A stretch of DNA of 56,014 bases from an uncultured Bacilli bacterium (GTDB taxonomy: Bacteria; Bacillota; UBA5301), in assembly GCA_964483175.1 (NCBI GenBank), contig CAZAAT010000001.1:73292-129305 (forward strand). The letters are read 5' to 3'. Positions 20,539 through 55,340 of this stretch are shown piece by piece. Below the pieces are notes generated by a model. That model made no database searches, was not told where the DNA came from, and saw only the letters and a list, made by a program, of their open reading frames with translations. Numbering within the stretch: the first letter of the stretch is position 1; each line of letters begins with the position of its first letter. The position numbers were made by a program, and so were the translations under genes.

Positions 20539-20567
20539 TTGACTAATATTGGTCATTAAGATAAACT
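20539..20567 (+). promoter_or_regulatory. Candidate sigma-A promoter of rpmH
   Basis: TTGACT (20539..20544), a 17-nt spacer, then TAAACT (20562..20567). Confidence 0.5.
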
Positions 20568-20625
20568 ACTAGTGGTTATTTTCATTAATAAAGCATTGGT
20601 CGTGCGAATACAGGGGGTGGGTGCG

Positions 20626-20760: not shown

Positions 20761-20768
20761 TTTATTTA

Positions 20769-20802
20769 ATGAGGTCTCATCAGGGGACCTCATTTCATAT
20801 TT
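20769..20802 (+). terminator. Hairpin between rpmH and rnpA (partial terminator or attenuator)
   Basis: ATGAGGTC-loop-GACCTCAT forms an 8-bp stem followed by a T-rich tract, TTCATATTT. Confidence 0.4.
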
Positions 20803-21165: not shown

Positions 21166-21371
21166 CTTGGTTAGCCATTAAGTTAATCCGGCTCTATCAG
21201 CGGGCTATTTCCCCACTGTTTCCACGAACTTGTCGCTATTACCCTACCTGTTCGCAGTATACGATTGAGGCGATTAATAAGTATGGTTGTTGGCGAGGGT
21301 GTTGGTTAGGAGCGAAACGGATTCTGCGCTGCCACCCGTTCCATGAAGGCGGATACGATCCTGTTCCCTAG
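21162..21371 (+). CDS. yidD: Membrane protein insertion efficiency factor YidD
   Basis: [34 protein letters not shown]...RILRCHPF is the family signature. Confidence 0.92.
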
Positions 21372-21463
21372 TTTATTTTCCTTTAATAGCAGGATTTTGT
21401 GGGCCGGGGTGTAAACTTTTTCAGTTAGGTTCTTTTTTAATGCAAAGAAGGTGGGGCTGACAA

Positions 21464-22093
21464 TTGAGCTTCTTAACAGGTATTATCTCGTCTGCACTGA
21501 GTTTTTTTTATGACCTCACGCAAAGCTGGGGTTTGGCCATTATTATGCTGACGATAGTCATCAGACTTCTGATGCACCCTTTGACGGTGAGCCAGTCTAA
21601 AAGTATGTTGGTCATGCGTAAACTGCAGCCGAAAATGAAAGAACTCCAGGAGAAGTATAAAGATAAACCCGAAGAGTACCAAAAACGGATGATGGCCTTG
21701 TACAAGGATCATAAGGCCAATCCGCTTGGTGGCTGCTTACCAATGTTGATTCAGATGCCGATTTTATTTGCACTATTTTATGTGTTGCGTGATGCGAACT
21801 ATGGTGAAGCCGGATTTTTGTGGATTCCATCCCTAAGCGCACCGGATCCTTCGTATCTATTGCCGCTGTTGACTGCTGCTTCGACATATATTCAGATGAA
21901 ATTGACGACTACCGACCCATCCCAGCAGGGTATGTTGTATATAATGCCGCTATTTATCGGTTTTATTAGCCTAAGCTTTCCTGCTGGCTTAACTCTGTAC
22001 TGGGTAATCAGCAATATTACCGGTTATTTTCAACAATTATTTATTAACAAGCGCTTAATGGCTTTAGATGAAGAGGGGAGCGTAGCAAATTGA
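21464..22093 (+). CDS. yidC: YidC/Oxa1-family membrane protein insertase (short Firmicute form)
   Basis: 209 aa with motifs ...AIIMLTIVIRLLMHPL...MRKLQPKMKELQEKYKD...NPLGGCLPMLIQMPILFALF.... Confidence 0.9.
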   Translation: MSFLTGIISSALSFFYDLTQSWGLAIIMLTIVIRLLMHPLTVSQSKSMLVMRKLQPKMKELQEKYKDKPEEYQKRMMALYKDHKANPLGGCLPMLIQMPILFALFYVLRDANYGEAGFLWIPSLSAPDPSYLLPLLTAASTYIQMKLTTTDPSQQGMLYIMPLFIGFISLSFPAGLTLYWVISNITGYFQQLFINKRLMALDEEGSVAN

Positions 22094-22794
22094 GATCCAT
22101 CGAATCCGTTGGAAAGACTGTAGAAGAAGCGATTGATGAGGCTCTAAGCAAACTCAAGGTCACTAGAGACCAGGTGCAAATTGAGGTTATCGATGAGGGT
22201 GCCAAAGGTATTTTTGGCTTAATCGGCACCAAATTGGCCAGGGTTAGGGTATCGATTAAGCCGGTGCCACAAGATAAATTGGTAGCTGCTCCGCTAGCGA
22301 GCTCAAGTACAAATGCAGCTACAATGCCTCCAACTGAGCAGCCGACGGAGAAGGTCGAGTGGGGCAAAGAGTTTCTTCTTCAGCTACTAACCAAGATGGG
22401 GGTAGATGGTGAAGTAGAAGTTGCTGGTGTCGACGAGGTCATTAATTTATCCATCACCGGCGAAAATATCGGTTTAATCATCGGTCATCGTGGACAAACC
22501 TTGGATTCGATTCAGTATTTAACTAACTTAGCTGCTAGTAAGGCTGGCCTCGAAGGTCCAAAGTTTGTGGTGGATGCGGAAAACTATCGTGCCAGACGCC
22601 AAAAGACCTTAGAACAGCTTGCGGATAGGTTAGCTAACAAAGTTATTACCCGCCGCCGCAAAGCGATTTTAGACCCCATGTCACCCCAGGAGCGTCGGGT
22701 TATTCACCTATATCTCAGAGATAATCCAAGTGTATGCACCTACAGCGAAGGAAAAGAACCTTATCGCCGGGTGATTATCGACCTGAAAAGATAA
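22090..22794 (+). CDS. jag: Jag/KhpB RNA-binding protein (Jag_N, KH, R3H)
   Basis: It has the N-terminal GKTVEEAIDEAL, the KH-like IGHRGQTLDSIQYL, and the C-terminal R3H region MSPQERRVIH. It follows yidC. Confidence 0.88.
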   Translation: MRSIESVGKTVEEAIDEALSKLKVTRDQVQIEVIDEGAKGIFGLIGTKLARVRVSIKPVPQDKLVAAPLASSSTNAATMPPTEQPTEKVEWGKEFLLQLLTKMGVDGEVEVAGVDEVINLSITGENIGLIIGHRGQTLDSIQYLTNLAASKAGLEGPKFVVDAENYRARRQKTLEQLADRLANKVITRRRKAILDPMSPQERRVIHLYLRDNPSVCTYSEGKEPYRRVIIDLKR

Positions 22795-22823
22795 ACGATT
22801 TTAGCTTGTGTTATCAGGCTGAG

Positions 22824-22858
22824 AGTCGCCGGCTTTTGCGCTGGCGACTTGTTTTATT
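22824..22858 (+). terminator. Rho-independent terminator after jag
   Basis: AGTCGCCGGC-ttttgc-GCTGGCGACT forms a 10-bp stem with one G-U pair. It is followed by TGTTTTATT. Confidence 0.7.
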
Positions 22859-22898
22859 AACGGTAATTTTCGATAAGCTATCGTAAGAGGTGTTTCTG

Positions 22899-24290
22899 GT
22901 GAGCATCGTGTTTGATAATGACACTATTGCGGCTATCTCCACTCCCTTGGGTGAGGGCGGACTCGCCATTATCCGTGTTAGCGGGGATAATGCCGTAAAA
23001 GTCGTCGACCAGGTATTTGCTCCAGGGGGCAAAGTCAAGCCTGATTTTCTTGGTTCAGCACCTAGCCATACAGTCCATTATGGCTACATTCTCAATCGGC
23101 TGGGAGAACGCGTCGACGAGGTGTTGGTATCGGTAATGTTGGCGCCACGCACGTTCACCAGGGAAAATACCGTTGAAATCAGCTGTCATGGTGGAATGGT
23201 GAGCGCGCAAAGGGTTTTGGAGGCTGTTCTTGATTCAGGTGCCAGACTGGCAGAGCCGGGGGAATTCACCAAAAGGGCTTTTCTAAATGGGCGTATCGAT
23301 TTGGCCCAAGCAGAAGCGGTAATCGATCTAATTCGCGCCAAGACCGAATCAAGTCATGCAGTTGCTCTGACTAATTTACGTGGTGGACTCTCCGAAAGGG
23401 TGCGCGCCATTCGCGAAGCCGTTGTCGAGGTGTTAACCTACTTGGAGGCCTCCATTGATTTTCCCGAGGACGAGATCCCACCGCTCGAGCAAGACCTCGA
23501 CCAGTTGCTCACTCGGGCCCAAGCTGAGGTAACCTCGCTAATCGAAACGGCGCGGACCGGACGGATTTATCGCGAGGGGCTAGCGACAGTCATTTTGGGG
23601 CGTCCTAATGTTGGAAAGTCTAGTTTGCTCAATGCCTTATTAGGTGAGGAGCGGGCGATTGTAACCCAGATTCCCGGAACAACGAGGGACCTACTCGAGG
23701 AACAGTATAACTTGCGCGGTTTACCGTTACGAATAATCGATACAGCGGGTATTCGGGCGACCTCCGATGAAGTTGAGAAAATCGGCGTAACCAGGAGTGT
23801 TGAGGCTATATCTCGTGCAGATATCATCCTTTTCCTTGTCGATTATTCTAGCGGGCTTACTCCGGAGGATCTCGAGCTAGCTACTACTTTACCTGTAGAT
23901 CACACCATATTAGTGGCAAATAAAGCGGACTTACCGCCAGGATCCGGATTTTACGAACTTGAGGATCGTTTTGGTGAACCGGTGCTAATTTCGGCCAAAG
24001 ATCAGACCGGCCTTGATGCTCTCAAAGATCGGATCTTACACACGGCTAGCGTAATTAAGGTTGACAGTACGCAGACCGTCTTGGTTACTAACCTGCGTCA
24101 TGTGGAGGCATTACGTCATGCCCACGAGGCTCTTCAGAATGCCCATAAGGCTTTAGACGGCGCAATGCCGGCCGATTTAATTACCATAGATCTGCATTCG
24201 GCCGTGGACCATCTAGGTGAAATAACTGGCGATACAGCCTCTGCTGACGTAATTGATCGCATTTTTGCTAATTTCTGCATTGGAAAGTAG
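22899..24290 (+). CDS. mnmE: tRNA modification GTPase MnmE
   Basis: It contains [22 protein letters not shown], the G1 motif GRPNVGKSS, and the C-terminal FCIGK. I prefer the GTG start at 22899, 8 nt after AAGAGG. The ORF track starts at 22890. Confidence 0.93.
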
Positions 24291-24298
24291 GGACGGAA

Positions 24299-26179
24299 AT
24301 GGGTTTTGCTCAAGCCTACGATGTTGTGGTAATCGGTGCTGGTCATGCCGGTTGTGAGGCAGCCTTGGCTACCGCCAAAATGGGCTTACGAACGCTAATT
24401 CTTACGATTAGTTTGGATAATGTTGGCCTAATGCCGTGTAACCCCAGCATCGGCGGGGCGGCCAAAGGACAGTTGGTGCGAGAAATCGATGCTCTCGGCG
24501 GGGCTATGGGTCTGGCCATCGACCAGACATATATTCAAATCAGGATGCTCAATACCAGCAAAGGACCTGCTGTCCATGCGTTACGTGCTCAAATCGATAA
24601 GTTTGCCTATATGCGGTGGATGAAGCGGCAGTTAGAAGAAACCCCCAATCTCGATTTCAAGCAAGGGGTTGTGACCAAAATTCTGACTCGGGGCGATCGA
24701 GTTATCGGGGTGCGCTTAAAGACGGAGATTGATATTGCTGCCAAGGCCGTCATTGTGGCTACCGGAACTTATCTGCGCGGGCTGGTTCATTATGGGCTTG
24801 TGCATTACTCCTCCGGACCACAAGGACAGCATCCTTCAGTCGAGTTAGCCCATAGTCTAATGGAATTTGGATTTGAATTACAACGCTTTAAGACCGGGAC
24901 CCCTCCCAGAATTCATGGGGATTCGGTGGATTATAGCAAGACCACCGAAATGCCGGGGGAAGAGTTGCGGCGTGGTTTCTCCTTTCGGGCACCTTTGCCC
25001 CGGCGTCAGCAAGTCTCGTGTTGGTTAACCCAGACCACTCAGCAGACTCATGAGATTATTCGGCAAAACTTGGATAAGGCTCCGATGTACACCGGTGAAA
25101 TTACCGGGATTGGTCCGCGGTATTGCCCTTCACTGGAGGCTAAAGTTTACGAGTTTCCCGACAAGCAGAGCCACCAAATCTTCATCGAGCCTGAAGGCAT
25201 TGGTACCAAGGAGATGTATTTGGCCGGTTTTTCCACCAGTTTGCCGGAGGATATTCAGATCGAGATGATCCGGACTGTCCCCGGGTTGGAAAACGTAGAA
25301 ATAATGCGGCCCGGTTACGCCATCGAATATGATGCGTTGGACCCGCTAGATTTGAAGTCTACTTTGGAGACTAAGGCGATCAGAGGTCTGTTCTGTGCGG
25401 GGCAGATCAATGGAACCTCCGGGTATGAAGAGGCGGCTGCGCAAGGGTTAATCGCAGGCATCAATGCGGCCTTGGCGATCAAAGAGGCCGAGCCTTTGGT
25501 GCTCAAACGATCCCAAGCCTATATTGGAGTGCTAATCGATGATTTGGTTACCAAAGGAACGCGCGAGCCGTATCGACTCCTGACAGCTAAAGCCGAATAT
25601 CGCCTGCTTTTACGGCAGGACAATGCCGATCTTAGACTCACCGAACTGGGATATCAACTTGGTTTGATTAGTGATCCGGTCTATACTGCTTTTCTACAGA
25701 AAAAGGAAGGTATTGAGAGGCTGCGGACCAAACTCAAAGAAGAGGTTATTCCGCCCAGCCCGGCGGTGAATGAAAAGCTATCTGACCTCGGGCAGGCTCC
25801 ACTACAGCGCTCAGTGAGCGCCGAGGTCTTCTTGCGCCGCCCGGAGATCAATTTCAATCTGTTATCCGAGTTTATCTCACTTAACACCGAGGAGATCGAT
25901 CCGGAAGTTGCCGAGCAGGTTGAATTGCAAGTCAAGTATAGCGGATATATCGAACGCCAGCAGGATCAGGTTGAGCGGTTCCTTAAACTGGAAGCCAAGA
26001 AGATCCCGCCTGATCTCCAATTTGAGTCTTTGCATGGTCTTAGCTCGGAAGCTCGGGAAAAATTAGCCCGGGTTCGCCCTGAATCACTCGGTCAGGCCGC
26101 GCGAATCTCCGGGGTATCGCCTGCGGATATCAACTATTTGGCAATTATCTTAGAACAACGCCGGAGAGGAAGGGCTTAA
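24299..26179 (+). CDS. mnmG: tRNA uridine 5-carboxymethylaminomethyl modification enzyme MnmG
   Basis: 626 aa with the FAD motif [18 protein letters not shown] and GPRYCPSLE. Confidence 0.95.
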
Positions 26180-26180
26180 G

Positions 26181-26915
26181 ATGAGTGCTTTATTCGAGTG
26201 TCAACAGACTTTGGCTACTAACCTGGCTCAATTAGGTTTATTTGATGACCGGAGCATTCCCGGTATTACGGAAAAGCTGCTCCTTTTCGCGGATGCGGTG
26301 TTGGAGGAAAATACGCGGCAAAATCTTACCAGAATCACCGAACCAGCAGCTGTTGTCAGCCGTCACCTCATAGACTCGCTTTCAGTTTTACAATGGCTGA
26401 AGGTACGTCCTGCCCGGGTCTGCGATGTAGGCACCGGAGGCGGTTTTCCCGGCGTACCGTTGGCTATTGCCGTTCCAGAGTTTCAAGTTACGCTCATCGA
26501 TAGCGAGAACAAGAAGGTTGCCTTTCTAAACCGTATCGCGAACGAGCTGGGTTTAACCAATGTTACTGCGATGCACCTCCGTGCCGAAGAGGCCGGCCAA
26601 GATCGGGCGCTAAGAGAAAGCTTTGCGATAGTTGTTTCTCGTTCTGTAGCTAGATTATCTATTCTTTATGAGTATACACTCCCACTGTTAAGGACCGGGG
26701 GGACGTTTTGGGCTTATAAGGGGGAAACAGCCCGCGAGGAAGCTGAGGAGGCTCAGCCGGCCCTGGAAATCCTAGGTGGAGCACTAGTTGGACTCAGGGA
26801 CTATGAGCTTCCTACGGGTGAAACCCATACCTTAGTACAAGTTGAAAAGGTCTCATCGACCCCGCAGCGCTACCCCCGCAGGGCTGGTCTTCCCGCTAAA
26901 CGTCCACTCCGCTAG
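26181..26915 (+). CDS. rsmG: 16S rRNA (guanine527-N7)-methyltransferase RsmG
   Basis: It has the SAM motif VCDVGTGGGFPGVPLAI. It holds the conserved position after mnmG. Confidence 0.9.
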   Translation: MSALFECQQTLATNLAQLGLFDDRSIPGITEKLLLFADAVLEENTRQNLTRITEPAAVVSRHLIDSLSVLQWLKVRPARVCDVGTGGGFPGVPLAIAVPEFQVTLIDSENKKVAFLNRIANELGLTNVTAMHLRAEEAGQDRALRESFAIVVSRSVARLSILYEYTLPLLRTGGTFWAYKGETAREEAEEAQPALEILGGALVGLRDYELPTGETHTLVQVEKVSSTPQRYPRRAGLPAKRPLR

Positions 26916-26956
26916 AGGAGATACGCTCCGCTCTGCCGAAAAACTATCCCAAAGAA

Positions 26957-26972
26957 TGTTTCACGTGGAACA
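26957..26972. promoter_or_regulatory. parS centromere-like site
   Basis: TGTTTCACGTGGAACA is the reverse complement of TGTTCCACGTGAAACA, a 16/16 match to the Bacillus-type parS consensus. Confidence 0.85.
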
Positions 26973-26991
26973 TTATGGGGGATATGCATAT

Positions 26992-27831
26992 ATGACCGAT
27001 ACGATTTGGGGCAAATTGTTGCGAAAACCTTCGCAAACCGACTCTCGCGCCCTGCTCAATCTTCCGGTTGGCTCGATTAATCCCAATCCCTTTCAGCCGC
27101 GGCGTAGTTTTAATGACGAGGAGCTCCAGGAGCTCACAGAATCGATCAAGACGCACGGAATTCTCCAGCCGTTGGTTGTCACTATGTCTGCAGGCGAAAA
27201 ATCAGAATATATATTGGTTGTAGGGGAACGGAGACTGCGGGCGGCCCAACTGGCCGGACTGACAGAGGTCCCCGCGATTCTTGCCAACTACACGGATCAG
27301 GAGCTTGCAGAGGTGGCGCTGGTTGAGAATCTCCAACGCAAGGATTTAACTCCGATTGAGGAAGCGATCGCATTCAAAAAATTGCTGGAGGAATATGGGC
27401 TAACCCAGCAAGAACTTGGGGCGCGCCTGGGCAAGAGTCAGAGTGCAATAGCGAATAAAGTTCGATTACTTAATTTGCCGCCTGAAGTCTTGGATTATAT
27501 TTCCCGGGAAATAATTACTGAACGCCATGGGCGAGTGCTCTTAAAACTGCCGCCAGAGTTGGCGAAAAAGGTAGTGGAGCAGGTGGTTAAGGCAGGTTTG
27601 TCAGTAAAGCAAACCGAAGCCCTGGTTGAACAGTTGCTGACTGAAAAACCAAGCAAAGAAAGGCGAGTCATCCGAATTTTTAAGGATGCGCGCTTGTTTA
27701 GAAATTCGGTATTACACCTGGTTAAGGAGTTACAGGCGAGTGGTCTCGCGGTTAAAGTGACCGAAGAAGATCAAGCAGATAGTTATCAATTGACGATCAA
27801 TATATCTAAAGCGAGTAGGAGGCAGTCTTGA
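26992..27831 (+). CDS. noc: ParB-family paralogue (Noc-like nucleoid occlusion / Spo0J-like protein)
   Basis: It has the ParB box PNPFQPRRSFNDEELQELTESIKTHGILQPLVV and GERRLRAA. The ATG start at 26992 follows GGGGGA. The ORF-track start at 26842 overlaps rsmG and is rejected. Confidence 0.75.
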   Translation: MTDTIWGKLLRKPSQTDSRALLNLPVGSINPNPFQPRRSFNDEELQELTESIKTHGILQPLVVTMSAGEKSEYILVVGERRLRAAQLAGLTEVPAILANYTDQELAEVALVENLQRKDLTPIEEAIAFKKLLEEYGLTQQELGARLGKSQSAIANKVRLLNLPPEVLDYISREIITERHGRVLLKLPPELAKKVVEQVVKAGLSVKQTEALVEQLLTEKPSKERRVIRIFKDARLFRNSVLHLVKELQASGLAVKVTEEDQADSYQLTINISKASRRQS

Positions 27832-28601
27832 TGGGGCGGATCTTGGCGGTAGTTAACCAAAAGGGTGGGGTTGGCAAGAGTACAACGACGGTAAACCTTT
27901 CTGCCTATTTGGGGGCTGCAGGCAAAAAAGTGCTGATGCTCGATATCGATCCCCAAGGGAATGCCACCAGCGGGATGGGGATTGATAAATCAGAGGTGGA
28001 TAAATCGATCTATGACGTATTGATTAACGATATCCCTGTGGCAGAGGCGGTTGTGACATGTAAATATCCGGAATTGTCTAGTGTGGATATTTTGCCGGCG
28101 ACGATCCAATTAGCCGGTGCTGAAGTTGAGCTCGTTTCGATGATGAGTAGAGAATACCGCTTGAAGATGGCCCTTGAAGGATTAACTGATCGATATGACT
28201 ATATCATCATGGATTGTCCCCCTTCGCTGGGCCTACTGACGATAAATGCTCTAACGGCGGCCGATGGAGTAATTGTACCGATTCAATGTGAGTACTATGC
28301 ATTAGAAGGATTAAGCCAACTCTTAGATACAGTTAACCTGGTCAAAAAACATTTAAATCGTTCGTTGGAAATAACCGGGGTGCTATTGACGATGTATGAT
28401 TCGCGGACTAATCTTGCTCAACAGGTAATAGATGAGGTGAAAGGATACTTTGCAGGCAAGGTATTTGAGACGATTATCCCCCGGAACATTCGTCTAAGTG
28501 AGGCCCCGGGCTATGGGAAGCCAATATTATTGTATGATCCGACCTCGAAAGGGGCCGTGGCGTACAAGGCGTTAAGGGACGAGGTGATCAAACGTGGCTA
28601 G
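27828..28601 (+). CDS. soj: ParA/Soj chromosome partitioning ATPase
   Basis: It has the deviant Walker A motif NQKGGVGKSTT, plus DCPPSLG. 257 aa. Confidence 0.93.
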   Translation: MMGRILAVVNQKGGVGKSTTTVNLSAYLGAAGKKVLMLDIDPQGNATSGMGIDKSEVDKSIYDVLINDIPVAEAVVTCKYPELSSVDILPATIQLAGAEVELVSMMSREYRLKMALEGLTDRYDYIIMDCPPSLGLLTINALTAADGVIVPIQCEYYALEGLSQLLDTVNLVKKHLNRSLEITGVLLTMYDSRTNLAQQVIDEVKGYFAGKVFETIIPRNIRLSEAPGYGKPILLYDPTSKGAVAYKALRDEVIKRG

Positions 28602-29448
28602 GCAAGCACTTGGCAGAGGACTAAAAGCTTTAATCAATACGGATGATGTAGCGGAACATGAGATCCGTGAGGTGTCGGTCGCTGAGATTACGCCGAACCC
28701 ATATCAACCGAGGCGCGAATTTGATGATGAGAAGCTGCGTGAATTGGCTGACTCAATCAAAGAACACGGGATTATCCAGCCTCTTGTAGTAAAGGACGAC
28801 CAAGACGGGAAATATATTTTGATAGCGGGTGAACGCCGTTTCCGCGCTGCACAGTTAGCGGGTTTAGAAGCGGTACCGGTTATTGTAAAAGAACTGGATC
28901 AGGATCAAATGATCCAATGGGCTTTGGTGGAGAACCTGCAAAGGGAGGATCTTAATCCCATAGAAGAAGCCCTGGCCTATCGTAGGCTTGCTGAAGAATT
29001 CAACCTAACTCAGGAGGCGATCGCCCAGGTTGTCGGGAAAAGCCGGCCGGCGGTGGCTAACACCCTCAGACTGTTGGCTTTACCCCAGCAAATTCAGGAT
29101 GCTGTTTCACGTGGAACTATATCGATGGGACATGCAAAGTGCTTGATTGGCCTTCCTGAAGGCGCACAGCGCCAGGTTTTCGAAAAAGTAATCTCGCAAG
29201 GTTTAAATGTGCGGCAGACAGAGGAAATCTGCGAGCGGCTGAGGCGGGCTACACCTAATGAACGTCGGAACAAGGAGAAAAAGATCAGCCGAGATCCGTA
29301 CATAACCGCGGCAGAAGATGAACTGAGGCTATCTTTAGGTACTAAGGTGAACATCGAATGCAATAAAAAGGGTCAGGGGAAGATCCAGATCGATTTCTAT
29401 AGTGAGGATGAACTAAATCGGCTAATAGAGTTGTTAGGACGGAGATAA
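28594..29448 (+). CDS. spo0J: ParB/Spo0J chromosome partitioning protein
   Basis: It has LGRGLKALI, PNPYQPRREFDDEKLRELADSIKEHGIIQPLVV and GERRFRAA. Confidence 0.93.
   Translation: MARQALGRGLKALINTDDVAEHEIREVSVAEITPNPYQPRREFDDEKLRELADSIKEHGIIQPLVVKDDQDGKYILIAGERRFRAAQLAGLEAVPVIVKELDQDQMIQWALVENLQREDLNPIEEALAYRRLAEEFNLTQEAIAQVVGKSRPAVANTLRLLALPQQIQDAVSRGTISMGHAKCLIGLPEGAQRQVFEKVISQGLNVRQTEEICERLRRATPNERRNKEKKISRDPYITAAEDELRLSLGTKVNIECNKKGQGKIQIDFYSEDELNRLIELLGRR
29103..29118. promoter_or_regulatory. parS-like site inside spo0J
   Basis: TGTTTCACGTGGAACT matches the consensus at 15/16. An intragenic position in spo0J is also known for Bacillus subtilis. Confidence 0.65.
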
Positions 29449-38048: not shown

Positions 38049-38077
38049 ATTAGACTTTCTAATATCTTTATTCTTTG

Positions 38078-38108
38078 GGGCCTGCTGCTAAAGCAGGTCT
38101 TCTTTTCT
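38078..38108 (+). terminator. Rho-independent terminator after ilvE (first of two)
   Basis: GGGCCTGCT-gctaa-AGCAGGTCT is followed by TCTTTTCT. Confidence 0.65.
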
Positions 38109-38110
38109 AG

Positions 38111-38139
38111 ATGGGTGTCCGTGCACCCATTTTTTTTTG
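38111..38139 (+). terminator. Second hairpin with a U-tract (tandem terminator or leader attenuator)
   Basis: ATGGGTG-tccgtg-CACCCAT is followed by nine T residues. Confidence 0.7.
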
Positions 38140-38262
38140 CAATCGTCTTGGAAATAAAAGGAAATGGAAGATCGGAGATGAATTTTTAGCTTGGACACGT
38201 GTGCTTTTCTTGTTGCCAGCCGCGTAAGAATGGGTGAGACGTATTGTGCGGGGGGATTCTGC

Positions 38263-39216
38263 ATGGCAACAATTAAGGCCGCCGTGGTTCAACTGTCCAT
38301 TTCAGATCTCAGCCGGTACTCTTGGCCTGAGCTAGAAAAGAAGTTGATCTTCCTGTTTTCACAGGGGACAGAGTCTGGGGCAGATCTAATTGTCTTTCCG
38401 GCCCTCACGGCGCTCTTATTTTCTCCAGAGTCTCGCAAGACGATAGAATATGGAGTTGATCAAAAAACGAGTCAGTTAGTCGCTCGGCTAGGCGGTTTTT
38501 GGACCGGTGAGTGGTTAGACTTTTTCACTACACTGGCCAGAAATCACCGTGTTCAGGTAGTGCCTGGAACAACTCTAGAAGCTACTGATAAAGGGCTGTT
38601 GCACCAGGGTTACTTGGTGGACAGAGATGGGAAACTGGTCTTAGCCCAGCAGCAGATTCATTTTTCCACTCTTGATCTGGGAAAAGGGTTTCAATCTGGA
38701 GAGCAGATCATTACCGCAGAAACAGATCAGGGCACCATTGGCTTAGTGCTTGGTGGGGATGCGTGGATACCGGAGATGGGCCGTATTTTGACCCTACAAG
38801 GTGCCGATATCATCATCAGTCTTCAAGCCATCAGCAATTTTTATGACTATCGAAAACAGCTACTCGGGGTGTGGCAGATTGCTCAGTCAAATGGGGTTTT
38901 TACCCTAGAGAGTTGTATGGTTGGCCGGGCCATTAAATTCGCTTACCAAGGGTTGACTACTATCTGTGGCCCGGCTTCGCTATACCCCCCGACCGGCATT
39001 TTAGCTCATATTGATCCGCTGTTAACCAATCTCACTAGCTTGGATCTTGGGTATTTGATCTCACCCCAAAAGGAAAAAGAAGGAGTATTAATTCGTAACC
39101 TTGATTTAGCGGCGGCCAAAGATTTCCGCGATGCCGCAGGACTCTTGGCGGCAACAAATATTCACTGGGGCAGTACTGGAGGTGATCTCGGTGACTACGC
39201 TGAGAAATCTAATTGA
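38263..39216 (+). CDS. Carbon-nitrogen hydrolase (nitrilase superfamily) fold protein lacking the Glu-Lys-Cys triad; predicted pseudoenzyme
   Basis: The fold motifs align with canonical ones, but the catalytic positions are substituted: DLIVFPA (canonical ..PE), QQQIHFS (canonical .RK.HLF) and IGLVLGGDAWIPE (canonical ...IC.D...PE). The ATG at 38263 follows GGGGGA. Confidence 0.6.
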   Translation: MATIKAAVVQLSISDLSRYSWPELEKKLIFLFSQGTESGADLIVFPALTALLFSPESRKTIEYGVDQKTSQLVARLGGFWTGEWLDFFTTLARNHRVQVVPGTTLEATDKGLLHQGYLVDRDGKLVLAQQQIHFSTLDLGKGFQSGEQIITAETDQGTIGLVLGGDAWIPEMGRILTLQGADIIISLQAISNFYDYRKQLLGVWQIAQSNGVFTLESCMVGRAIKFAYQGLTTICGPASLYPPTGILAHIDPLLTNLTSLDLGYLISPQKEKEGVLIRNLDLAAAKDFRDAAGLLAATNIHWGSTGGDLGDYAEKSN

Positions 39217-40153
39217 CAACATCAAATGGGAACCGGTTCGGGAGTTGTATTACGAAGTGGAGACGTTTTTTCTGTTTTACCCCGAGCGGATCAAAAAACT
39301 TATTTACACGCATAGATCCAAAGCTAAAGAAAAGTGTACACCACAACCTGGCCGCATTGCGCTGGTTAAGAGATCAATGCTAGAGGCGGATTCATTAACG
39401 GGACTGCTTGAAAAGGCAACCTACCTTTTTGATAAGGCTTGTGAGGTCGGAGCGGGCGCAGTGGTATTAACCACAGGTGCGGCTGAGGTTTTAACACAAT
39501 TAGCGCCAATTTCGACATCACGAGTTACTAACCTGATCCTTGATTCCTTCGAAGCATTCTGGGGCAGTTTGGCTCTCAAGTACGAGTTATGGATCATCGT
39601 CGGGACAAGAACCCTTTATAATAGGGCCCACAAGCGGGAGCTTTGCTATTGTTTTGATCCGACGGGTAAATGCTGCTACCAGTTTAAGACCCATCTTTCC
39701 CCCCAGGAGGTTAAGGACGGATATGTGCCAGGCAGACAGGTGAAAGTCTTTGAAACTGCTGCAGGCCCCATCGCGCTGGCCTTTGCTGGAGAAGAACAGT
39801 ACTTTGAATTGGCTCGGATGCAGGCGGCTAGGGGGGCAAAAATTGTTGTTCGCCTGGGAGACTGGCCGGAAGATTTAGAGATCACGGCTTTACATGGGGA
39901 ATGGGCCCGAGCGCAAGAAAATAACTGCTACTATGTTTCCGGAAATCGGATTTATTCACCAACTTATTTAAGCATTGACGGAAGCGGCATATTTGTCGTT
40001 GTTGATTCGGAAGACCTACCATTTATCCAGGTGGATGCAAATTTGGATCGTTTGGCCCACAGCTGTGAGGACCCAGGGGCAATTCCTGCTGTTAACCAAG
40101 ACCTAATGAACCGGTACTTACCTTATCTATACCGCCAATTATGGAGTTTGTAG
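39191..40153 (+). CDS. Second nitrilase-superfamily fold paralogue lacking the catalytic Glu and Cys; predicted pseudoenzyme
   Basis: AVVLTTG stands in place of ..LPE. FKTHLSP retains the Lys. IALAFAGEEQYFE stands in place of ...IC.D...PE. The GTG start at 39191 is 8 nt after GGAGG and overlaps the upstream gene by 26 nt. Confidence 0.55.
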   Translation: MTTLRNLIDNIKWEPVRELYYEVETFFLFYPERIKKLIYTHRSKAKEKCTPQPGRIALVKRSMLEADSLTGLLEKATYLFDKACEVGAGAVVLTTGAAEVLTQLAPISTSRVTNLILDSFEAFWGSLALKYELWIIVGTRTLYNRAHKRELCYCFDPTGKCCYQFKTHLSPQEVKDGYVPGRQVKVFETAAGPIALAFAGEEQYFELARMQAARGAKIVVRLGDWPEDLEITALHGEWARAQENNCYYVSGNRIYSPTYLSIDGSGIFVVVDSEDLPFIQVDANLDRLAHSCEDPGAIPAVNQDLMNRYLPYLYRQLWSL

Positions 40154-40166: not shown

Positions 40167-41483
40167 ATGTGGAGATTTTTCAAATGGCAAGTGTGGACAA
40201 GCCTAATCATCATGATTCTTTGTCAGTTAGGCGTTCTAGCAGCAGAGTCAAATGTTTCTATTCAGTATGTCGCCGGCAAGGGTGATGATTCGTACTGTGA
40301 TCTCAGTTTGAAAACCGGCTGGGATATGCCCAATGGCTGGCAGTTATCTGTAGCCCCGTTAGTCCGGGCCTATGCGTTTGATGAGGTGGCCAAGTTTCGG
40401 CTGGCCAATGAGATAAAGATTAACCATGATACCGGCTGGGACAAGCTCAATCTGAACTATACTCGTTTCGACCAACCGGAGGATGTGGCAAATATGTACA
40501 ATCTGGGTTATGAGCACAAAAGTAAACTCAAGGCATGGTGGAACCCTGGCGAGCAAGGATCATGGGTAGCCAGAATAAAGGGTGAGCACAAAGCTTATTC
40601 GAATAAGCCGCATCGGGACTATGTTTCTGGTGAATGGGAGCTATATTCAGAGTCCAAAGAACCGATCAATCGGCCGAGTTGGACTGATCAAGTCTGGTCT
40701 ACCGGGATCTTCGATTTTTCGGTGAATCGGGCCTTAGAAGGACAAGACTGGTTTTTAGATGGCTGGGTTTTGGGGGAAGCACTAATCAATAGCGGCGAAG
40801 ACTACCAGCATCCATGGGCAGAGTCGGCAGATAAAATTAGCACGAAGTTAATCTCTAGGATTGGCGGGGGTTGGTCTAATCACTATCGGAATTCTCAATA
40901 CACTTGGCGGGTTAATAACTACGAGCTCCAGTGGCAGCAGCAGATCAGCCCAGCGAGCAGCCTAAAGTTTGGTTATCGAACAATTGATAAAACATACCCC
41001 GACAGACTGACCAAGAGCTATCATACCCGCGAACATCTGCTGCGGTGGTTGGGCAAAGGTGAGCAGGCAACAGTGGAAACCGGGTTAACCTATGACTCTA
41101 AACGCTACTTGGCCGGGAAAACCCTTGAAGAATACCAAGTATGGCTCAGTCGCACGGGGCGTGGGAATTGGCCGAAATCCCTGAAGATACAAGGCCGGAT
41201 CCAAACACAAAGTGAGCTCAAACCAGATGCCTCAGTTACCGCAAGTTTCGGTCTGGAACTGCCAAAAAGCAAAAAATGGGCGGGCAAGCTTACCTTGAAA
41301 GCTGATCACAAGTGGGACAAGCTGATTTCCAAGAAGACCACTGTTACGTCTACCGTATCCACCACCCGAAAATTGCGCGAGCGGTGTGATCTCAGCGTGG
41401 CCTTGGACAGAAAGTGGGTGTGGGAGGATCAAGCGGTTAGTGATGATTGGGGGGCTAAAATCGGACTCAAACTATCGTTGTAG
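40167..41483 (+). CDS. Exported Trp/Tyr-rich protein of unknown function with a beta-barrel-like alternating pattern
   Basis: The Sec signal is MWRFFKWQVWTSLIIMILCQLGVLAA|ES. By my count it has 26 Trp in 438 aa. Many amphipathic beta-strand-like segments occur (LKFGYRTID, VETGLTYD, VTASFGLEL, KLTLKADH, DLSVALDRKWVW, GAKIGLKLSL). The start is 13 nt after the upstream gene. Confidence 0.5.
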   Translation: MWRFFKWQVWTSLIIMILCQLGVLAAESNVSIQYVAGKGDDSYCDLSLKTGWDMPNGWQLSVAPLVRAYAFDEVAKFRLANEIKINHDTGWDKLNLNYTRFDQPEDVANMYNLGYEHKSKLKAWWNPGEQGSWVARIKGEHKAYSNKPHRDYVSGEWELYSESKEPINRPSWTDQVWSTGIFDFSVNRALEGQDWFLDGWVLGEALINSGEDYQHPWAESADKISTKLISRIGGGWSNHYRNSQYTWRVNNYELQWQQQISPASSLKFGYRTIDKTYPDRLTKSYHTREHLLRWLGKGEQATVETGLTYDSKRYLAGKTLEEYQVWLSRTGRGNWPKSLKIQGRIQTQSELKPDASVTASFGLELPKSKKWAGKLTLKADHKWDKLISKKTTVTSTVSTTRKLRERCDLSVALDRKWVWEDQAVSDDWGAKIGLKLSL

Positions 41484-41546
41484 TATTCTCAGCGGTTTTC
41501 CTGGGTATACCAATGCTGTATCTAGGAAAACGCGGGAGGTATTGAG

Positions 41547-42521
41547 TTGCAGGTCTTTCTTGGTGTCGATGTGGGATCGGTTAGTACAAATTTTGCTCTT
41601 GTTTCTGCTGAGGGTAGATTGCTCGAGTCTTTATACATCCGAACTAAAGGCAACCCCATTCAAGCAGTTAAGGAGGGATTAGCACGGCTCCGCGACTTGA
41701 TTCCGGCGAACGTTACGGTTGTGGGGGCGGGAGCCACGGGAAGCGCCCGCTACCTTACCGGGGTGTTAATTGGTGCTGATGCGGTCAAAAATGAAATTAC
41801 CGCCCATGCTGTAGGCGCCTTGCAGGTCAATCCGGAGGTGCGGACCGTTTTAGAGATTGGCGGTCAGGATTCGAAGATCATCATTATTCGGAACGGGATA
41901 GTAGTTGATTTTGCGATGAATACAGTGTGCGCAGCGGGAACAGGCTCTTTTCTAGATCACCAAGCGGAAAGGTTAAATATTCCGATTGAACGCTTTGGCG
42001 ATCTGGCCTTACAGGCTAGCACCCCGGTACGAATAGCCGGAAGGTGTGGGGTTTTTGCCGAATCGGATATGATTCACAAACAACAAACGGGGCACCGTTT
42101 AGAGGATATCATCGCCGGACTATGTCAAGCCTTGGTTCGTAATTACCTTAGCAATGTAGCTAAAGGCAAGGAGATCGCTGCTCCGATCATTTTTCAAGGG
42201 GGTGTTGCTGCTAACAAAGGAATAAAAGCGGCTTTTGAAGCCGCCCTTAGCCAGCAGGTACAAGTATCACCGCACCACGGTGTTACGGGGGCGATTGGCG
42301 CTGCCTTGCTGGGTAAAGCTGCGGTTGAAAAAAGCGGAAAGACCAGTTTCAAAGGGTTTGAAGCAGCTGAATTAAACTATCATGCCCAAAGTTTTGAATG
42401 CAGCGGTTGTCCGAATCGGTGTGAAGTCGTCCAGATCTGTGTAGACAAAACAGTATTGGCCAGGTGGGGAGATCGCTGCGGCAAGTGGGCGCAGGGAGTT
42501 GGATCGGGCACTGTTGCTTAA
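41547..42521 (+). CDS. BadF/BadG/BcrA/BcrD-type ATPase (HgdC-like activase of 2-hydroxyacyl-CoA dehydratase type enzymes), stand-alone
   Basis: It contains LGVDVGSVSTNFAL, EIGGQDSK, the cluster-ligand contexts NTVCAAGTGSFLD and AGRCGVFAESD, and FQGGVAAN. An additional C-terminal motif reads CSGCPNRC...C...C. The start is TTG at 41547. Confidence 0.75.
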   Translation: MQVFLGVDVGSVSTNFALVSAEGRLLESLYIRTKGNPIQAVKEGLARLRDLIPANVTVVGAGATGSARYLTGVLIGADAVKNEITAHAVGALQVNPEVRTVLEIGGQDSKIIIIRNGIVVDFAMNTVCAAGTGSFLDHQAERLNIPIERFGDLALQASTPVRIAGRCGVFAESDMIHKQQTGHRLEDIIAGLCQALVRNYLSNVAKGKEIAAPIIFQGGVAANKGIKAAFEAALSQQVQVSPHHGVTGAIGAALLGKAAVEKSGKTSFKGFEAAELNYHAQSFECSGCPNRCEVVQICVDKTVLARWGDRCGKWAQGVGSGTVA

Positions 42522-42623
42522 ACAATCGTTTGCGGTAAACTAGCAAATAGAAACAGGATTTAGGGGATCAGCCTAGAATAGAGATATGGTCTACTACCTA
42601 CCTTTCAAGGAGGCCCCTATTAA

Positions 42624-43565
42624 ATGCAAGCACCACTGAATATCTTTGCCGGCACGTCTATCCCCGATTTAGCTGCTGAGGTAGCTGAATTACTTGGTCA
42701 AGAGCTTGGTAAGGTTAACATCAAACGCTTTGCCAACGGTGAAATTTATGTCAGATTTCATGAGACCGTCCGCGGCAATGATGTTTTTTTAATGCAGTCA
42801 ATCTGCTCACCTGTTAATGACAACCTTGTTGAGCTACTGATAATGGTAGATGCGCTGAAGCGAGCATCAGCAGGTCGGATTAATGCGATCATTCCCCATT
42901 ACGGTTACTCGCGCCAAGAGCGCAAAGAGGCCCCGCGCGAACCAATTTCCGCTCGGATGGTAGCCGATGTTCTCACCGCCGTCGGGGTGGATCGTGTGAT
43001 TACCTTCGACCTTCACGCACCGGCCATTCAGGGATTCTTTAATATTCCGGTGGACCACCTGACGGTGTTGCCATTATTGGCGGAGTATTATCGGAAAAAG
43101 AACCTGGAAAATGCTTGCGTCGTGGCTCTTGATGCCGGCGGGATCAAGCGAGCTGAAAAGCTTGCCAAGAGGCTGGATTTGCCCTTGGTAGGCATGTACA
43201 AGCGCCATCCGGAGCATAACGTCTCTGAGGTTACCCATGTCATGGGCGACATTGAAGGCAAAGTTCCATTGATTATTGAGGATATGATCGATACCGGCGG
43301 GACTTTGCTCGAAGGGGTAAAGGCGCTTTTGGCGCATGGTGCACGGCCGGAGATTCACGTCTGCGCAACACATCCGGTCTTTTCAGGGCCGATCTTGGAA
43401 CGCTTAGCGCACCCGGCTATTAAAGAGGTTTTGGTTACCAATACTATTCCACTAGGACCGGATAAACAGCTTGATAAGATCAAGACGCTCTCCATTGCGC
43501 CCCTGACGGCCTCAGCTATCACTAGGGTACATGAAGAGTCATCGGTCAGTTCGCTATTTAATTAA
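42624..43565 (+). CDS. prs: Ribose-phosphate pyrophosphokinase
   Basis: It contains KRFANGEIYVRF.E.VRG.DVF..QS, YYGYSRQERK, and the PRPP loop IIEDMIDTGGTL. Confidence 0.93.
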   Translation: MQAPLNIFAGTSIPDLAAEVAELLGQELGKVNIKRFANGEIYVRFHETVRGNDVFLMQSICSPVNDNLVELLIMVDALKRASAGRINAIIPHYGYSRQERKEAPREPISARMVADVLTAVGVDRVITFDLHAPAIQGFFNIPVDHLTVLPLLAEYYRKKNLENACVVALDAGGIKRAEKLAKRLDLPLVGMYKRHPEHNVSEVTHVMGDIEGKVPLIIEDMIDTGGTLLEGVKALLAHGARPEIHVCATHPVFSGPILERLAHPAIKEVLVTNTIPLGPDKQLDKIKTLSIAPLTASAITRVHEESSVSSLFN

Positions 43566-43589: not shown

Positions 43590-43620
43590 GGGGCCCCGAG
43601 ATGGGGCCCTTCGTTTTTCT
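43590..43620 (+). terminator. Rho-independent terminator after prs
   Basis: GGGGCCCC-gagat-GGGGCCC is followed by TTCGTTTTTCT. Confidence 0.75.
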
Positions 43621-43676
43621 GGAGGAATAGGGGTTATGCTCACGAATAAACTAGTAGGGATAAGGGGTGTCCCGCG

Positions 43677-54734: not shown

Positions 54735-55172
54735 TTAATATTTTTTAATTTCACCACGGGAATCCGCAGAGATATCTTCGTCTTTTTCTCCTCGGATTCG
54801 CCGCAGAGCTTGCCTTTCCTTCTCAGTAACCATCTCTTCGAAGTCTGTCAGCAAACTTTTGGCATGGGATAAAGATTGTTGTGCCTCTTCGACGCGCCGC
54901 CGATGAAGCTCCTCTTTATCGATCATGTTCGCTTGCATATTGGCTTCGAGACGCTGAGACTCGTCGAGGACCCGGATCATCTTTTCAAATTCGCGATAAA
55001 TTAAATAGCAGGCCAAAGCTAGCCCTACAACCAAAAATGTCGGTGTAGTCCCGAAACGGTTATCTAGCCAAGTCCCGCCGAAAAAACCAAATAACAAATA
55101 GAAAATCAACGATAGACCAAAGGACAATCCCATGTTAATGTGTTTGAAGCTTGCCCAGGTACTTTTTTTCAC
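54735..55172 (-). CDS. AtpZ/AtpI-family small membrane protein with a long charged C-terminal extension
   Basis: The N-terminal ~60 aa (GLSFGLSLIFYLLFGFFGGTWLDNRFGTTPTFLVVGLALAC) fit the AtpZ pattern. About 85 aa of Glu/Arg/Lys-rich helix follow. The GTG start follows AGGAGG. Confidence 0.6.
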   Translation of the reverse strand: MKKSTWASFKHINMGLSFGLSLIFYLLFGFFGGTWLDNRFGTTPTFLVVGLALACYLIYREFEKMIRVLDESQRLEANMQANMIDKEELHRRRVEEAQQSLSHAKSLLTDFEEMVTEKERQALRRIRGEKDEDISADSRGEIKKY

Positions 55173-55340
55173 TAAATACGAACCTCCTAGATATTCATGG
55201 AGGGACTAATGCAGTTAATCTAGTAGTAAACGGTAATAACTCAAATTTTCAAGAAATTAGCGCGTACTGTTCATATATTCTCGCCAACAGGTTAAATTCC
55301 TTTCAAGTAAATAAAAATACCAGAAGAGCTATCGCGTTGC

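What the first reader, a model, noticed from the sequence alone, without database searches (positions are those of the whole stretch)
38263..40153. Two overlapping nitrilase-fold paralogues that have both lost the catalytic triad, at the head of a compact cluster of unknown function
Both ~320-aa proteins align convincingly by eye with the carbon-nitrogen hydrolase fold (beta1 IKAAVVQ, GADLIVFP., .HL motif, ...D...PE, GADII). In protein 1 all three catalytic positions are replaced: Glu to Ala in FPA, Lys to Gln in QQQIH, and Cys to Gly in LGGD. In protein 2 the Glu (LTT) and the nucleophile Cys (AFAGE) are replaced, and only the Lys (FKTHL) remains. The genes overlap by 26 nt. An exported Trp-rich protein follows 13 nt later, and an orphan HgdC-type activase 63 nt after that. 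The cluster is framed by a double terminator upstream (38078..38139) and prs downstream. CN-hydrolases work as dimers, so a dead/dead heterodimer is plausible, acting as a binding module or scaffold or using non-canonical chemistry. I know of no described system with this composition. This is my best candidate for a novel system in the window.
Basis: partly seen in the sequence, partly recalled or inferred. Interest (0 to 1): 0.7.

Follow-up and report, generated by a model that had tools for sequence, protein, structure and literature searches.

The report
Two dead nitrilase-like genes, orphan operon
Two neighbouring genes encode nitrilase-fold proteins that have lost their catalytic residues yet are kept by selection, coupled to an unknown secreted protein; the trio occurs only in one rare uncultured bacterial lineage and its function is unknown.

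Summary
P1 (38263-39216) and P2 (39191-40153) both pass the Pfam CN_hydrolase threshold. Alignments to solved amidases put Ala/Gln/Gly (P1) and Thr/Lys/Ala (P2) at the Glu/Lys/Cys positions. The genes overlap by 26 nt, and the 13-nt and 63-nt gaps and the double terminator are as described.

- **Age of the loss:** P1's loss is old; Ala and Gln are invariant in six lineages. P2's is piecemeal; its Cys position reads A, A, P, P, C, Y.
- **Selection:** all the genes are under purifying selection (dN/dS about 0.09-0.12), so they are not decaying.
- **P1-P2-P3 module:** the three are translationally coupled and evolve at matching rates.
- **P3:** a signal-peptide, Trp-rich, beta-strand-rich orphan. 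It has one other cluster among 1.84 billion representatives.
- **The activase (P4):** a genuine HgdC-type protein, but it evolves much more slowly and follows a conserved spacer. prs has its own conserved promoter-like motif. Membership of P4 is therefore unproven.
- **Distribution:** every homologue found lies in a few uncultured Bacillota genomes, two of them assigned to the class-level lineage UBA5301, always with the same gene order. Co-occurrence cannot be separated from general synteny.

Best reading: a non-catalytic P1-P2 heteromer that works with P3. This is a new variant of a known superfamily, of moderate interest.

The parts
38077..38132 (+). Two tandem terminator-like hairpins after the class IV aminotransferase gene; upstream boundary of the unit
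   Evidence: stems at 38077-38101 and 38109-38132, each followed by a T run; sequence.
38159..38183 (+). Conserved promoter-like motif AGGAAAT-N14-GAAT (SigH-type: -35 AGGA, 17-nt spacer, -10 GAAT), 80 nt upstream of the P1 start codon
   Evidence: The AGG and GAAT blocks are invariant in six lineages while flanking DNA varies. The strict pattern matches twice in the window against 0.5 expected. The motif definition is from PMC12456013. The same core motif also precedes prs, orf103 and atp genes.
38263..39216 (+). P1: 317-aa CN-hydrolase-fold pseudoenzyme (Glu to Ala47, Lys to Gln131, Cys to Gly). Two P1-specific, nearly invariant insertions lie at about residues 57-84 and 249-279
   Evidence: fold and triad; invariant columns; dN/dS 0.089 and 0.110.
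39191..40153 (+). P2: 320-aa CN-hydrolase-fold pseudoenzyme (Glu to Thr, Lys kept, Cys to Ala). It has a roughly 55-aa N-terminal helical extension and an invariant GEEQxFE motif after the lost Cys. It overlaps P1 by 26 nt
   Evidence: fold and triad; model and Foldseek; RBS GGAGGTG and GTG start; dN/dS 0.095 and 0.116.
40167..41483 (+). P3: 438-aa orphan exported protein with a signal peptide, 5.6% Trp and many amphipathic beta-strand-like segments. Its C-terminus is ...G-L-K-L-S-L
   Evidence: signal-peptide-like segment, composition, dyad periodicity. No Pfam, NCBIfam, PADLOC or PDB match. Only one other cluster among 1.84 billion representatives. The AlphaFold model failed, pLDDT 31.6. dN/dS 0.12.
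41484..41546 (+). P3-P4 spacer holding a conserved block TCCTGGG(T/C)ATA(C/A)CAA of unknown role, possibly a separate promoter for P4
   Evidence: alignment of six lineages.
41547..42521 (+). P4: HgdC/BcrAD-type ATP-dependent activase with both bridging-cluster cysteines and an invariant C-terminal CxxCxxxC...C tail. It is a positional neighbour; membership of the module is unproven
   Evidence: Its slower evolution (dN/dS 0.036-0.07; 74-78% identity across lineages) is. No dehydratase or reductase partner was found among the window ORFs scanned.
42555..42579 (+). Conserved AGGA-N17-GAAT promoter-like motif upstream of prs; suggests prs can be transcribed on its own
42624..43565 (+). prs (ribose-phosphate pyrophosphokinase), followed by a terminator at 43590-43610; downstream boundary

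Best explanation
P1 and P2 are diverged paralogues of the nitrilase (CN-hydrolase) superfamily. They no longer carry out Glu-Lys-Cys chemistry but are maintained by purifying selection.

They are made in coupled fashion from one transcript that starts at a conserved SigH-type promoter about 80 nt upstream of P1. They most likely assemble into a non-catalytic heteromer on the usual CN-hydrolase dimer interface. In this reading the heteromer binds something and does not hydrolyse it.

Its functional partner is most likely P3, the fast-evolving exported beta-strand-rich protein encoded immediately downstream. The heteromer could act as a dedicated cytosolic binding or escort module for P3. Alternatively it could bind a ligand whose passage or capture depends on P3.

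The activase P4 and prs are conserved neighbours, probably with their own expression signals, and are probably not part of the module.

**Shown:** the fold, the loss of the triad, purifying selection, gene coupling, lineage restriction, and the orphan status of P3.

**Inferred:** heteromer formation, the non-catalytic binding role, the link to P3, and promoter identity.
For: **Fold and triad loss:**

**The loss applies across the family.** P1 has Ala and Gln invariant and G/G/S/N/G/G at the Cys position. P2's Cys position reads A, A, P, P, C, Y, and its Lys position reads K, K, Q, Q, K, K. The nearest outgroup, P0012, has an intact E/K/C triad.

**Purifying selection in two independent species pairs.** dN/dS for P1/P2/P3 is 0.089/0.095/0.122 and 0.110/0.116/0.119.

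**Selection acts away from the catalytic residues.** In P1, 57% and 71% of positions are invariant in the two family-specific insertions (by my count), well above the rest of the protein. P2 has invariant GEEQxFE and SIDGSG motifs.

**Coupling.** P1 and P2 overlap by 4-35 nt in all six lineages, and P3 follows within 4-46 nt. Each gene has a strong RBS.

**Matching evolutionary rates.** P2 and P3 are 35-41% identical to their distant orthologues, where P4 is 74-78%. dN is 0.075-0.076 for P1, P2 and P3 in the L004/L009 pair.

**Conserved upstream promoter block:**

**P1 and P2 are homologous:** hhalign probability 99%, E 4.5e-18.
Against: - No direct evidence for a P1-P2 complex or for any contact with P3; a multimer prediction could not be run.
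- P3 is exported while P1 and P2 have no signal peptide, so any physical interaction would have to occur before export.
- Equal evolutionary rates and adjacency could simply reflect a shared lineage-specific, weakly constrained status.
- All relatives are close enough that the whole neighbourhood is syntenic, so co-occurrence is not independent evidence.
- P2 in one lineage (L004/L008) still has Lys and Cys, with an Asp shifted by one residue from the Glu position. Residual catalysis in some lineages cannot be excluded.
Confidence: 0.45

Rival explanations
1. P1 and/or P2 are still enzymes with a relocated or non-canonical active site, for example one built from P1's invariant Glu216-Ser217-Cys218 or P2's invariant GEEQ acidic motif. 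On this view they act on a substrate that P3 imports or captures, as an amidase-plus-channel operon whose chemistry has shifted.
For: - Strong conservation of new motifs next to the old pocket.
- The second catalytic Glu (equivalent to PH0642 Glu120) is invariant in P2.
- P2 keeps Lys in four of six lineages, and Cys in one.
- The genes are under purifying selection.
Against: - No residue at any canonical triad position is conserved across either family; even the nucleophile position varies between 86%-identical P2 orthologues, C against Y.
- No precedent was found for nitrilase-fold catalysis without the Cys. This rests on my own knowledge and on a literature search that returned nothing.
- The proposed alternative sites are untested.
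Confidence: 0.15
2. P1-P2, P3 and the activase P4 work together, with P4 delivering ATP-driven low-potential electrons to the P1-P2 complex or to P3.
For: - The order P1-P2-P3-P4 is conserved in all six lineages.
- No terminator-like site stronger than a 5-pair stem was found on the + strand between P1 and prs.
- P4 has no dehydratase or reductase partner among the window ORFs scanned.
- P4 is a genuine activase with both cluster cysteines.
Against: - Known activase partners hold Fe-S clusters (established knowledge of HgdAB and BcrBC). P1 has a single invariant Cys and P2 has none.
- P4's evolutionary rate matches housekeeping neighbours and not P1-P3.
- A conserved block in the P3-P4 spacer suggests separate control.
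- The whole neighbourhood is syntenic, so adjacency carries little weight.
Confidence: 0.1
3. There is no system. P1, P2 and P3 are lineage-specific leftovers of a former amidase operon, each kept for an unrelated minor or moonlighting role, and they are adjacent only by descent.
For: - Extremely narrow distribution: 6 clusters among 5.8 billion proteins, 3 of 185,579 species, 2 further metagenome loci.
- Fast evolution of P2 and P3.
- Piecemeal, lineage-specific loss of P2's triad residues.
Against: - dN/dS of about 0.1 in two independent pairs is not relaxed evolution.
- Overlapping reading frames are preserved in all lineages, even though the overlap length changes.
- The promoter block upstream of P1 is conserved.
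- dN is nearly identical across the three genes.
Confidence: 0.2

Closest known systems
Nitrilase / carbon-nitrogen hydrolase superfamily (Pfam PF00795). Nearest solved relatives: Helicobacter pylori CN-hydrolase 6mg6, N-carbamoylputrescine amidohydrolase 5h8k, Pyrococcus horikoshii amidase PH0642 (1j31, 6ypa), Staphylococcus aureus 3p8k
   Same: Homologous fold along most of the length. Shared motifs such as beta1 (KAAVVQ), GAxLxVFP, the PE after the nucleophile strand, and A-Q/E-N. The C-terminal strand is in the usual place.
   Different: The Glu-Lys-Cys triad is missing in both proteins. P1 carries two family-specific conserved insertions. P2 has a roughly 55-aa helical N-terminal extension and a deletion before the SIDGSG motif.
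HgdC / BcrAD-type activases (TIGR00241; solved examples 1hux, 4eht, MbdQ 9gai, and the double-cubane-cluster protein reductase 7yyl)
   Same: P4 aligns end to end with these proteins at E 3e-37 to 1e-35, including both cysteines that hold the bridging [4Fe-4S] cluster.
   Different: No partner dehydratase or reductase gene lies nearby. P4 has an extra invariant C-terminal Cys4 tail of about 60 aa. Public records name the orthologue '2-hydroxyglutaryl-CoA dehydratase', but it matches the activase, not the dehydratase subunits.
Amidase-plus-channel operons, such as formamidase or short-chain-amide operons with a dedicated porin (recalled from memory, not tested here)
   Same: A cytosolic amidase-family gene followed by a gene for an exported beta-rich protein.
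   Different: Here the amidase-family proteins lack catalytic residues. P3 has no detectable homology to any porin family. It is not known whether this lineage has an outer membrane.
Dead-paralogue subunits paired with active enzymes (the general pseudoenzyme principle, from established knowledge)
   Same: A catalytically dead paralogue is encoded next to, and coupled with, its relative.
   Different: Both partners are dead in this window and in most lineages, so the usual role of regulating an active subunit does not apply.

Membership tests
Nitrilase / CN-hydrolase superfamily (PF00795) | Sequence match to the family profile above the curated threshold | tested here: met
   P1 57.9 bits and P2 32.1 bits against a cut-off of 23.2. 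Profile against PDB: E 2.2e-11 for P1 and 2.7e-7 for P2.
Nitrilase / CN-hydrolase superfamily (PF00795) | Alpha-beta-beta-alpha sandwich fold | tested here: met
   The P2 model (pLDDT 65, pTM 0.67; the C-terminal third is poor) hits only nitrilase-superfamily structures in its top 50, probability 1.00. P1 was not modelled; its fold is inferred from sequence.
Nitrilase / CN-hydrolase superfamily (PF00795) | Catalytic Glu-Lys-Cys triad (plus a second Glu) | tested here: not met
   P1 reads Ala/Gln/Gly, with the second Glu replaced by Asp. P2 reads Thr/Lys/Ala, with the second Glu kept. Orthologues are also incomplete. Both are homologues of the superfamily but not functional members of the hydrolase class.
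Nitrilase / CN-hydrolase superfamily (PF00795) | Dimer or higher oligomer built on the conserved interface | not testable with these tools
   Only single chains can be modelled here. Heteromer formation is inferred from gene overlap.
HgdC/BcrAD-type activase (TIGR00241, PF01869) | Profile match above the curated cut-off | tested here: met
   TIGR00241 181.6 bits against 125.4; PF01869 164.9 bits against 31.5.
HgdC/BcrAD-type activase (TIGR00241, PF01869) | Two cysteines per subunit that hold the bridging [4Fe-4S] cluster | tested here: met
   Cys128 (NTVCAAGTG) and Cys167 (AGRCGVFAES) align with the cysteines of MbdQ and are invariant in six orthologues. Their assignment as cluster ligands follows the HgdC structure and is from my own knowledge.
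HgdC/BcrAD-type activase (TIGR00241, PF01869) | Adjacent electron-accepting partner (HgdAB, BcrBC or a double-cubane protein) | tested here: not met
   None among the window ORFs scanned against Pfam, which were nearly all of those of 150 aa or more. None in the six related loci either.
Outer-membrane beta-barrel proteins (considered for P3) | Signal peptide, many amphipathic beta-strands, C-terminal beta-signal ending in an aromatic residue, and a host with an outer membrane | tested here: inconclusive
   - The signal peptide is present.
- 14 segments show dyad periodicity, covering 39% of residues against 7-11% in P1 and P2.
- The C-terminus has Gly at -6 and Leu or Ile at -1, which is not aromatic.
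- One faint OmpA_membrane hit, E 0.056, in 1 of 6 orthologues.
- The AlphaFold model failed.
- The envelope type of the lineage is unknown.
Anti-phage defence systems (PADLOC) | Match to any defence protein model | tested here: not met
   No hit for P1-P4 at E up to 0.01.

The most novel reading that the evidence does not exclude
P1, P2 and P3, possibly with the activase P4, form a lineage-specific envelope system. In it a doubly dead nitrilase-fold heterodimer has been repurposed as a cytosolic ligand or client-binding module for a new family of exported, possibly outer-membrane, beta-barrel proteins. It would be switched on by a stationary-phase (SigH-type) promoter. This would be a first example of a nitrilase-fold pseudoenzyme pair with a structural or escort role.
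Probability: 0.12. Interest if true: 0.65.

Novelty: new variant of a known kind. Interest (0 to 1): 0.35.

Why it matters
If the pair really is a selected, non-catalytic heteromer, it would add the nitrilase fold to the enzyme scaffolds that have been recycled as binding or assembly modules. It would also show both partners of a paralogue pair losing catalysis while staying under constraint.

It would also give a first handle on an orphan exported protein family in an uncultured thermophilic Bacillota lineage found in digesters and hydrothermal sediments.

The practical impact is limited. The genes are confined to a few uncultured genomes, no phenotype or ligand is known, and no long-standing question depends on them.

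Tried and rejected
**P3 structure.** No fold search was run on that model.

**P3 remote homology.**
- HMMER against 1.84 billion representatives found only P3 itself and one orthologue cluster.
- Pfam at E up to 10 on six orthologues gave one faint OmpA hit.
- The PDB profile search gave only noise.
- A profile comparison with the 629-711-aa exported protein of the neighbouring cytochrome block in relatives showed no homology.

**Wider distribution.**
- The word-indexed search of 5.8 billion proteins gave 6, 2 and 4 hits for P1, P3 and P2.
- The GTDB species scan gave 3 loci.
- The metagenome scan gave 2 more.
- No lineage with a different gene combination was found, so the co-occurrence test has no power.

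**Other negatives.**
- Defence system: no PADLOC hits.
- Riboswitch or structured leader: no Rfam hit. The leader folds no better than shuffles (z 0.67). The alignment fold showed only a weak RBS-pairing stem with one compensatory pair.
- Literature: searches for nitrilase-superfamily pseudoenzymes returned nothing relevant.

**Sporulation-specific expression.** I rejected this as a conclusion. The AGGA-N17-GAAT motif upstream of P1 also precedes prs, orf103 and ATP synthase genes.

**Source contig.** The exact look-up of the window's own P3 found no record.
Full report
**1. The observation**

The ORF map matches the finding.
- P1 runs 38263-39216 (317 aa).
- P2 runs to 40153. The longest ORF starts at 39131, but a GTG at 39191 sits 6 nt after GGAGGTG. 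An external gene call for the identical protein is 320 aa. The P1/P2 overlap is therefore 26 nt.
- P3 (40167-41483) follows after 13 nt with an AGGAGA site.
- P4 (41547-42521, TTG start, GGGAGG site) follows after 63 nt.
- prs runs 42624-43565.
- Two terminator-like hairpins lie at 38077-38132, and one follows prs at 43590-43610.

**2. Fold and catalytic residues**

Both proteins pass the curated Pfam threshold for CN_hydrolase: P1 scores 57.9 bits and P2 scores 32.1 bits, against a cut-off of 23.2. NCBIfam gives only sub-threshold matches to N-carbamoylputrescine amidase, archaeal nitrilase and similar families, so neither belongs to a curated functional family.

The triad positions were read from several alignments. 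These were pairwise and profile alignments to solved enzymes (6mg6, PH0642/1j31 and its variants, 3p8k, 2uxy) and a joint alignment with PH0642.

| Canonical residue | P1 | P2 |
|---|---|---|
| Glu | Ala47 (FPA) | Thr (LTT) |
| Lys | Gln131 (QQQIH) | Lys, kept (FKTHL) |
| Cys | Gly (LGGD) | Ala (AFAGE) |
| second Glu | Asp | Glu, kept |

A model of P2 (pLDDT 65, pTM 0.67, confident over the first two thirds) matches only nitrilase-superfamily structures in its top 50 PDB hits. The profiles of the two families align with each other at 99% probability, E 4.5e-18 and 24% identity, including a shared C-terminal tail motif. They are diverged paralogues.

**3. Relatives**

The genes are extremely rare.
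- The word-indexed search of 5.8 billion clusters returned 6 (P1), 4 (P2) and 2 (P3) hits.
- A pattern scan of one genome for each of 185,579 species found three loci.
- A scan of 241 million metagenome records found two more.
- A full HMMER pass of P3 over 1.84 billion representatives found only P3 itself and one orthologous cluster.

The relatives are uncultured Bacillota MAGs from digesters, fermentation samples and Guaymas Basin enrichments. One carries the UBA5301 name, and the Guaymas MAG is classified as UBA5301, a class-level uncultured lineage. Public records call the orthologues 'carbon-nitrogen hydrolase family protein', 'hypothetical protein' and, for the activase, '2-hydroxyglutaryl-CoA dehydratase'.

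All six distinct lineages have the order P1-P2-P3-P4-prs-orf103-PHP. Four of them have an extra block of about 6 kb between ilvE and P1. That block holds an NHL propeller, three multihaem cytochromes and a 629-711-aa exported protein.

**4. The loss of catalysis applies across the family, and the genes are not decaying**

In P1, Ala at the Glu position and Gln at the Lys position are invariant. The Cys position reads G, G, S, N, G, G.

In P2 the positions drift:
- Glu position: T, T, or Pro followed by an acidic residue one position later.
- Lys position: K, K, Q, Q, K, K.
- Cys position: A, A, P, P, C, Y. The C and Y occur in two orthologues that are 86% identical.

The nearest outgroup, P0012, has an intact triad.

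dN/dS in two independent species pairs is shown below.

| Gene | window vs L002 | L004 vs L009 |
|---|---|---|
| P1 | 0.089 | 0.110 |
| P2 | 0.095 | 0.116 |
| P3 | 0.122 | 0.119 |
| P4 | 0.036 | 0.070 |
| prs | 0.021 | 0.013 |

The strongest conservation in P1 lies in two insertions that canonical enzymes lack. Residues 57-84 and 249-279 are 57% and 71% invariant by my count, well above the rest of the protein. P2 has invariant GEEQxFE and SIDGSG motifs. Selection therefore acts on features other than the catalytic residues.

**5. What belongs together**

P1 and P2 overlap in every lineage (4-35 nt), and P3 follows within 4-46 nt.

P2 and P3 diverge in step. They are 35-41% identical to the distant lineages, where P1 is 63-66%, P4 is 74-78% and prs is about 90%. 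In the L004/L009 pair, dN is 0.075-0.076 for all three of P1, P2 and P3.

A non-coding block upstream of P1 is conserved in all six lineages, whether or not the cytochrome block is present. It contains AAAGG(A/G)AAT-N14-GAAT, that is, AGGA, 17 nt, GAAT. This is the SigH-type promoter pattern described in PMC12456013. The strict form occurs twice in the window against 0.5 expected.

The same core motif also precedes prs (conserved in six lineages), orf103 and two ATP synthase genes. A near-consensus sigma-70-type site precedes ilvE. So the motif points to a second widely used promoter class in this organism, not to sporulation-specific control. It also suggests that prs can be transcribed alone.

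The P3-P4 spacer holds another conserved block of unknown role. P1 has one invariant Cys and P2 has none, so neither looks like an Fe-S acceptor for an activase. I therefore treat P1-P2-P3 as the module and P4 as an unproven neighbour.

**6. P3**

P3 has one N-terminal hydrophobic segment with an Ala-Ala-Glu cleavage-type site. Its mature part is 5.6% Trp. Fourteen segments show alternating hydrophobicity and cover 39% of the residues. The figure is 7-11% for P1 and P2, and 24% for the 629-711-aa exported protein of the relatives' cytochrome block.

P3's C-terminus has an invariant DDWGxKxG, then Gly at -6 and Leu or Ile at -1. The 711-aa protein ends in ...YRLGLTRYF, which looks like an outer-membrane beta-signal. 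This raises the possibility that the lineage has an outer membrane and that P3 is a barrel.

That possibility was not confirmed:
- the AlphaFold model failed;
- there is no family or PDB match;
- there is no homology to the 711-aa family;
- I could not survey the genomes for outer-membrane biogenesis genes.

**7. P4**

P4 is a genuine HgdC/BcrAD-type activase, scoring 181.6 bits on TIGR00241 against a cut-off of 125.4. It is 3e-37 to MbdQ and 1e-35 to HgdC, and both cluster cysteines are aligned and invariant. It also has an invariant C-terminal CxxCxxxC...C tail. No partner was found among the window ORFs scanned or in the related loci.

**8. Interpretation**

The best-supported reading is a non-catalytic P1-P2 heteromer, kept for a binding or assembly role that is tied to P3.

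Rival readings are:
- non-canonical catalysis;
- the four-gene system with the activase;
- unrelated leftovers of an old amidase operon.

The data do not decide between a pre-export escort role and binding of a ligand connected with P3.

**9. Comparison and novelty**

By homology these proteins belong to the nitrilase superfamily. They fail the defining catalytic feature, so they are pseudoenzyme offshoots. No defence-system match exists, and no description of nitrilase-fold pseudoenzyme pairs was found.

This is a new variant of a known kind. It is confined to a few uncultured genomes, without phenotype, ligand or structure. Interest is moderate to low (0.35). The system-level reading has a probability of about 0.12.

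Noticed in passing
window 1-2779 and 4789-7567: A perfect (100%) direct repeat of at least 2779 nt at an offset of 4788 nt. It covers most of a molybdopterin oxidoreductase gene (4563-6929, minus strand). A 4Fe-4S dicluster gene and a cytochrome b561-type gene lie between the copies. This is either a very recent tandem duplication or an assembly artefact; the window starts inside the repeat.
   Followed up: partly
L001 1623-7888; L006 1459-7886; also L004, L008, L009: Four of six related lineages carry a block of about 6 kb between ilvE and P1. It holds an NHL beta-propeller, two small multihaem cytochromes, a 629-711-aa exported orphan protein and a 565-592-aa MtrC-like multihaem cytochrome. 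It resembles the extracellular-electron-transfer clusters described in Firmicutes (PMC10376724). The window and L002 lack it.
   Followed up: partly
L006 3994-6129: The 711-aa orphan protein of that block has a signal peptide and ends in ...YRLGLTRYF, a typical outer-membrane beta-barrel C-terminal signal. Its gene lies between small and large cytochrome genes, as mtrB does. This hints that the UBA5301 lineage may have an outer membrane. No Pfam match even at E up to 10.
   Followed up: partly
window 42555-42579, 43623-43647 (+); 54796-54820, 55277-55301, 2983-3007, 7777-7801 (-): The SigH-type core AGGA-N17/18-GAAT occurs 9 times against 4.9 expected. About seven of these lie in intergenic DNA upstream of genes in the right orientation, including prs, orf103, atpB and an upstream atp-cluster ORF. 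The prs copy is conserved in six lineages. This suggests a widely used second promoter class in this organism.
   Followed up: partly
window 42330-42521 (P4 residues about 262-324): The activase carries an invariant C-terminal tail FKGF...SFECxGCxNxCEVVQIxVD...LARWGDRCGKW with four cysteines. The solved activases that P4 matches, which are 243-276 aa long, do not extend this far. It is possibly an extra metal or Fe-S site.
   Followed up: partly
window 41484-41546: The P3-P4 spacer contains a block TCCTGGG(T/C)ATA(C/A)CAA that is conserved in six lineages. Its role is unknown; it could be a promoter or an RNA processing site.
   Followed up: no
window 39130-39216 (P1 C-terminus): In the window and L002 the last 30 or so residues of P1 differ completely from the tail shared by the other four lineages (...FNxxLYxxELSxIYS...). 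That shared tail aligns with the YLPxLY tail of P2. The change coincides with a longer P1/P2 overlap.
   Followed up: no
window 19290-20147 (-): A 285-aa ORF with an HATPase_c domain and a C-terminal HTH (HTH_11/DeoR-like). It ends exactly where dnaA (17949-19289, minus strand) begins. This is an unusual gene to find abutting dnaA at the replication origin.
   Followed up: no
window 17949-29448: The window spans the chromosomal origin. dnaA-dnaN-recF-gyrB-gyrA lie on the minus strand, and yidC-jag-mnmE-mnmG-rsmG and parB/parA genes lie on the plus strand. The GC-skew sign changes near 19-20 kb. No tRNA and no Rfam family was found in all 56 kb.
   Followed up: yes
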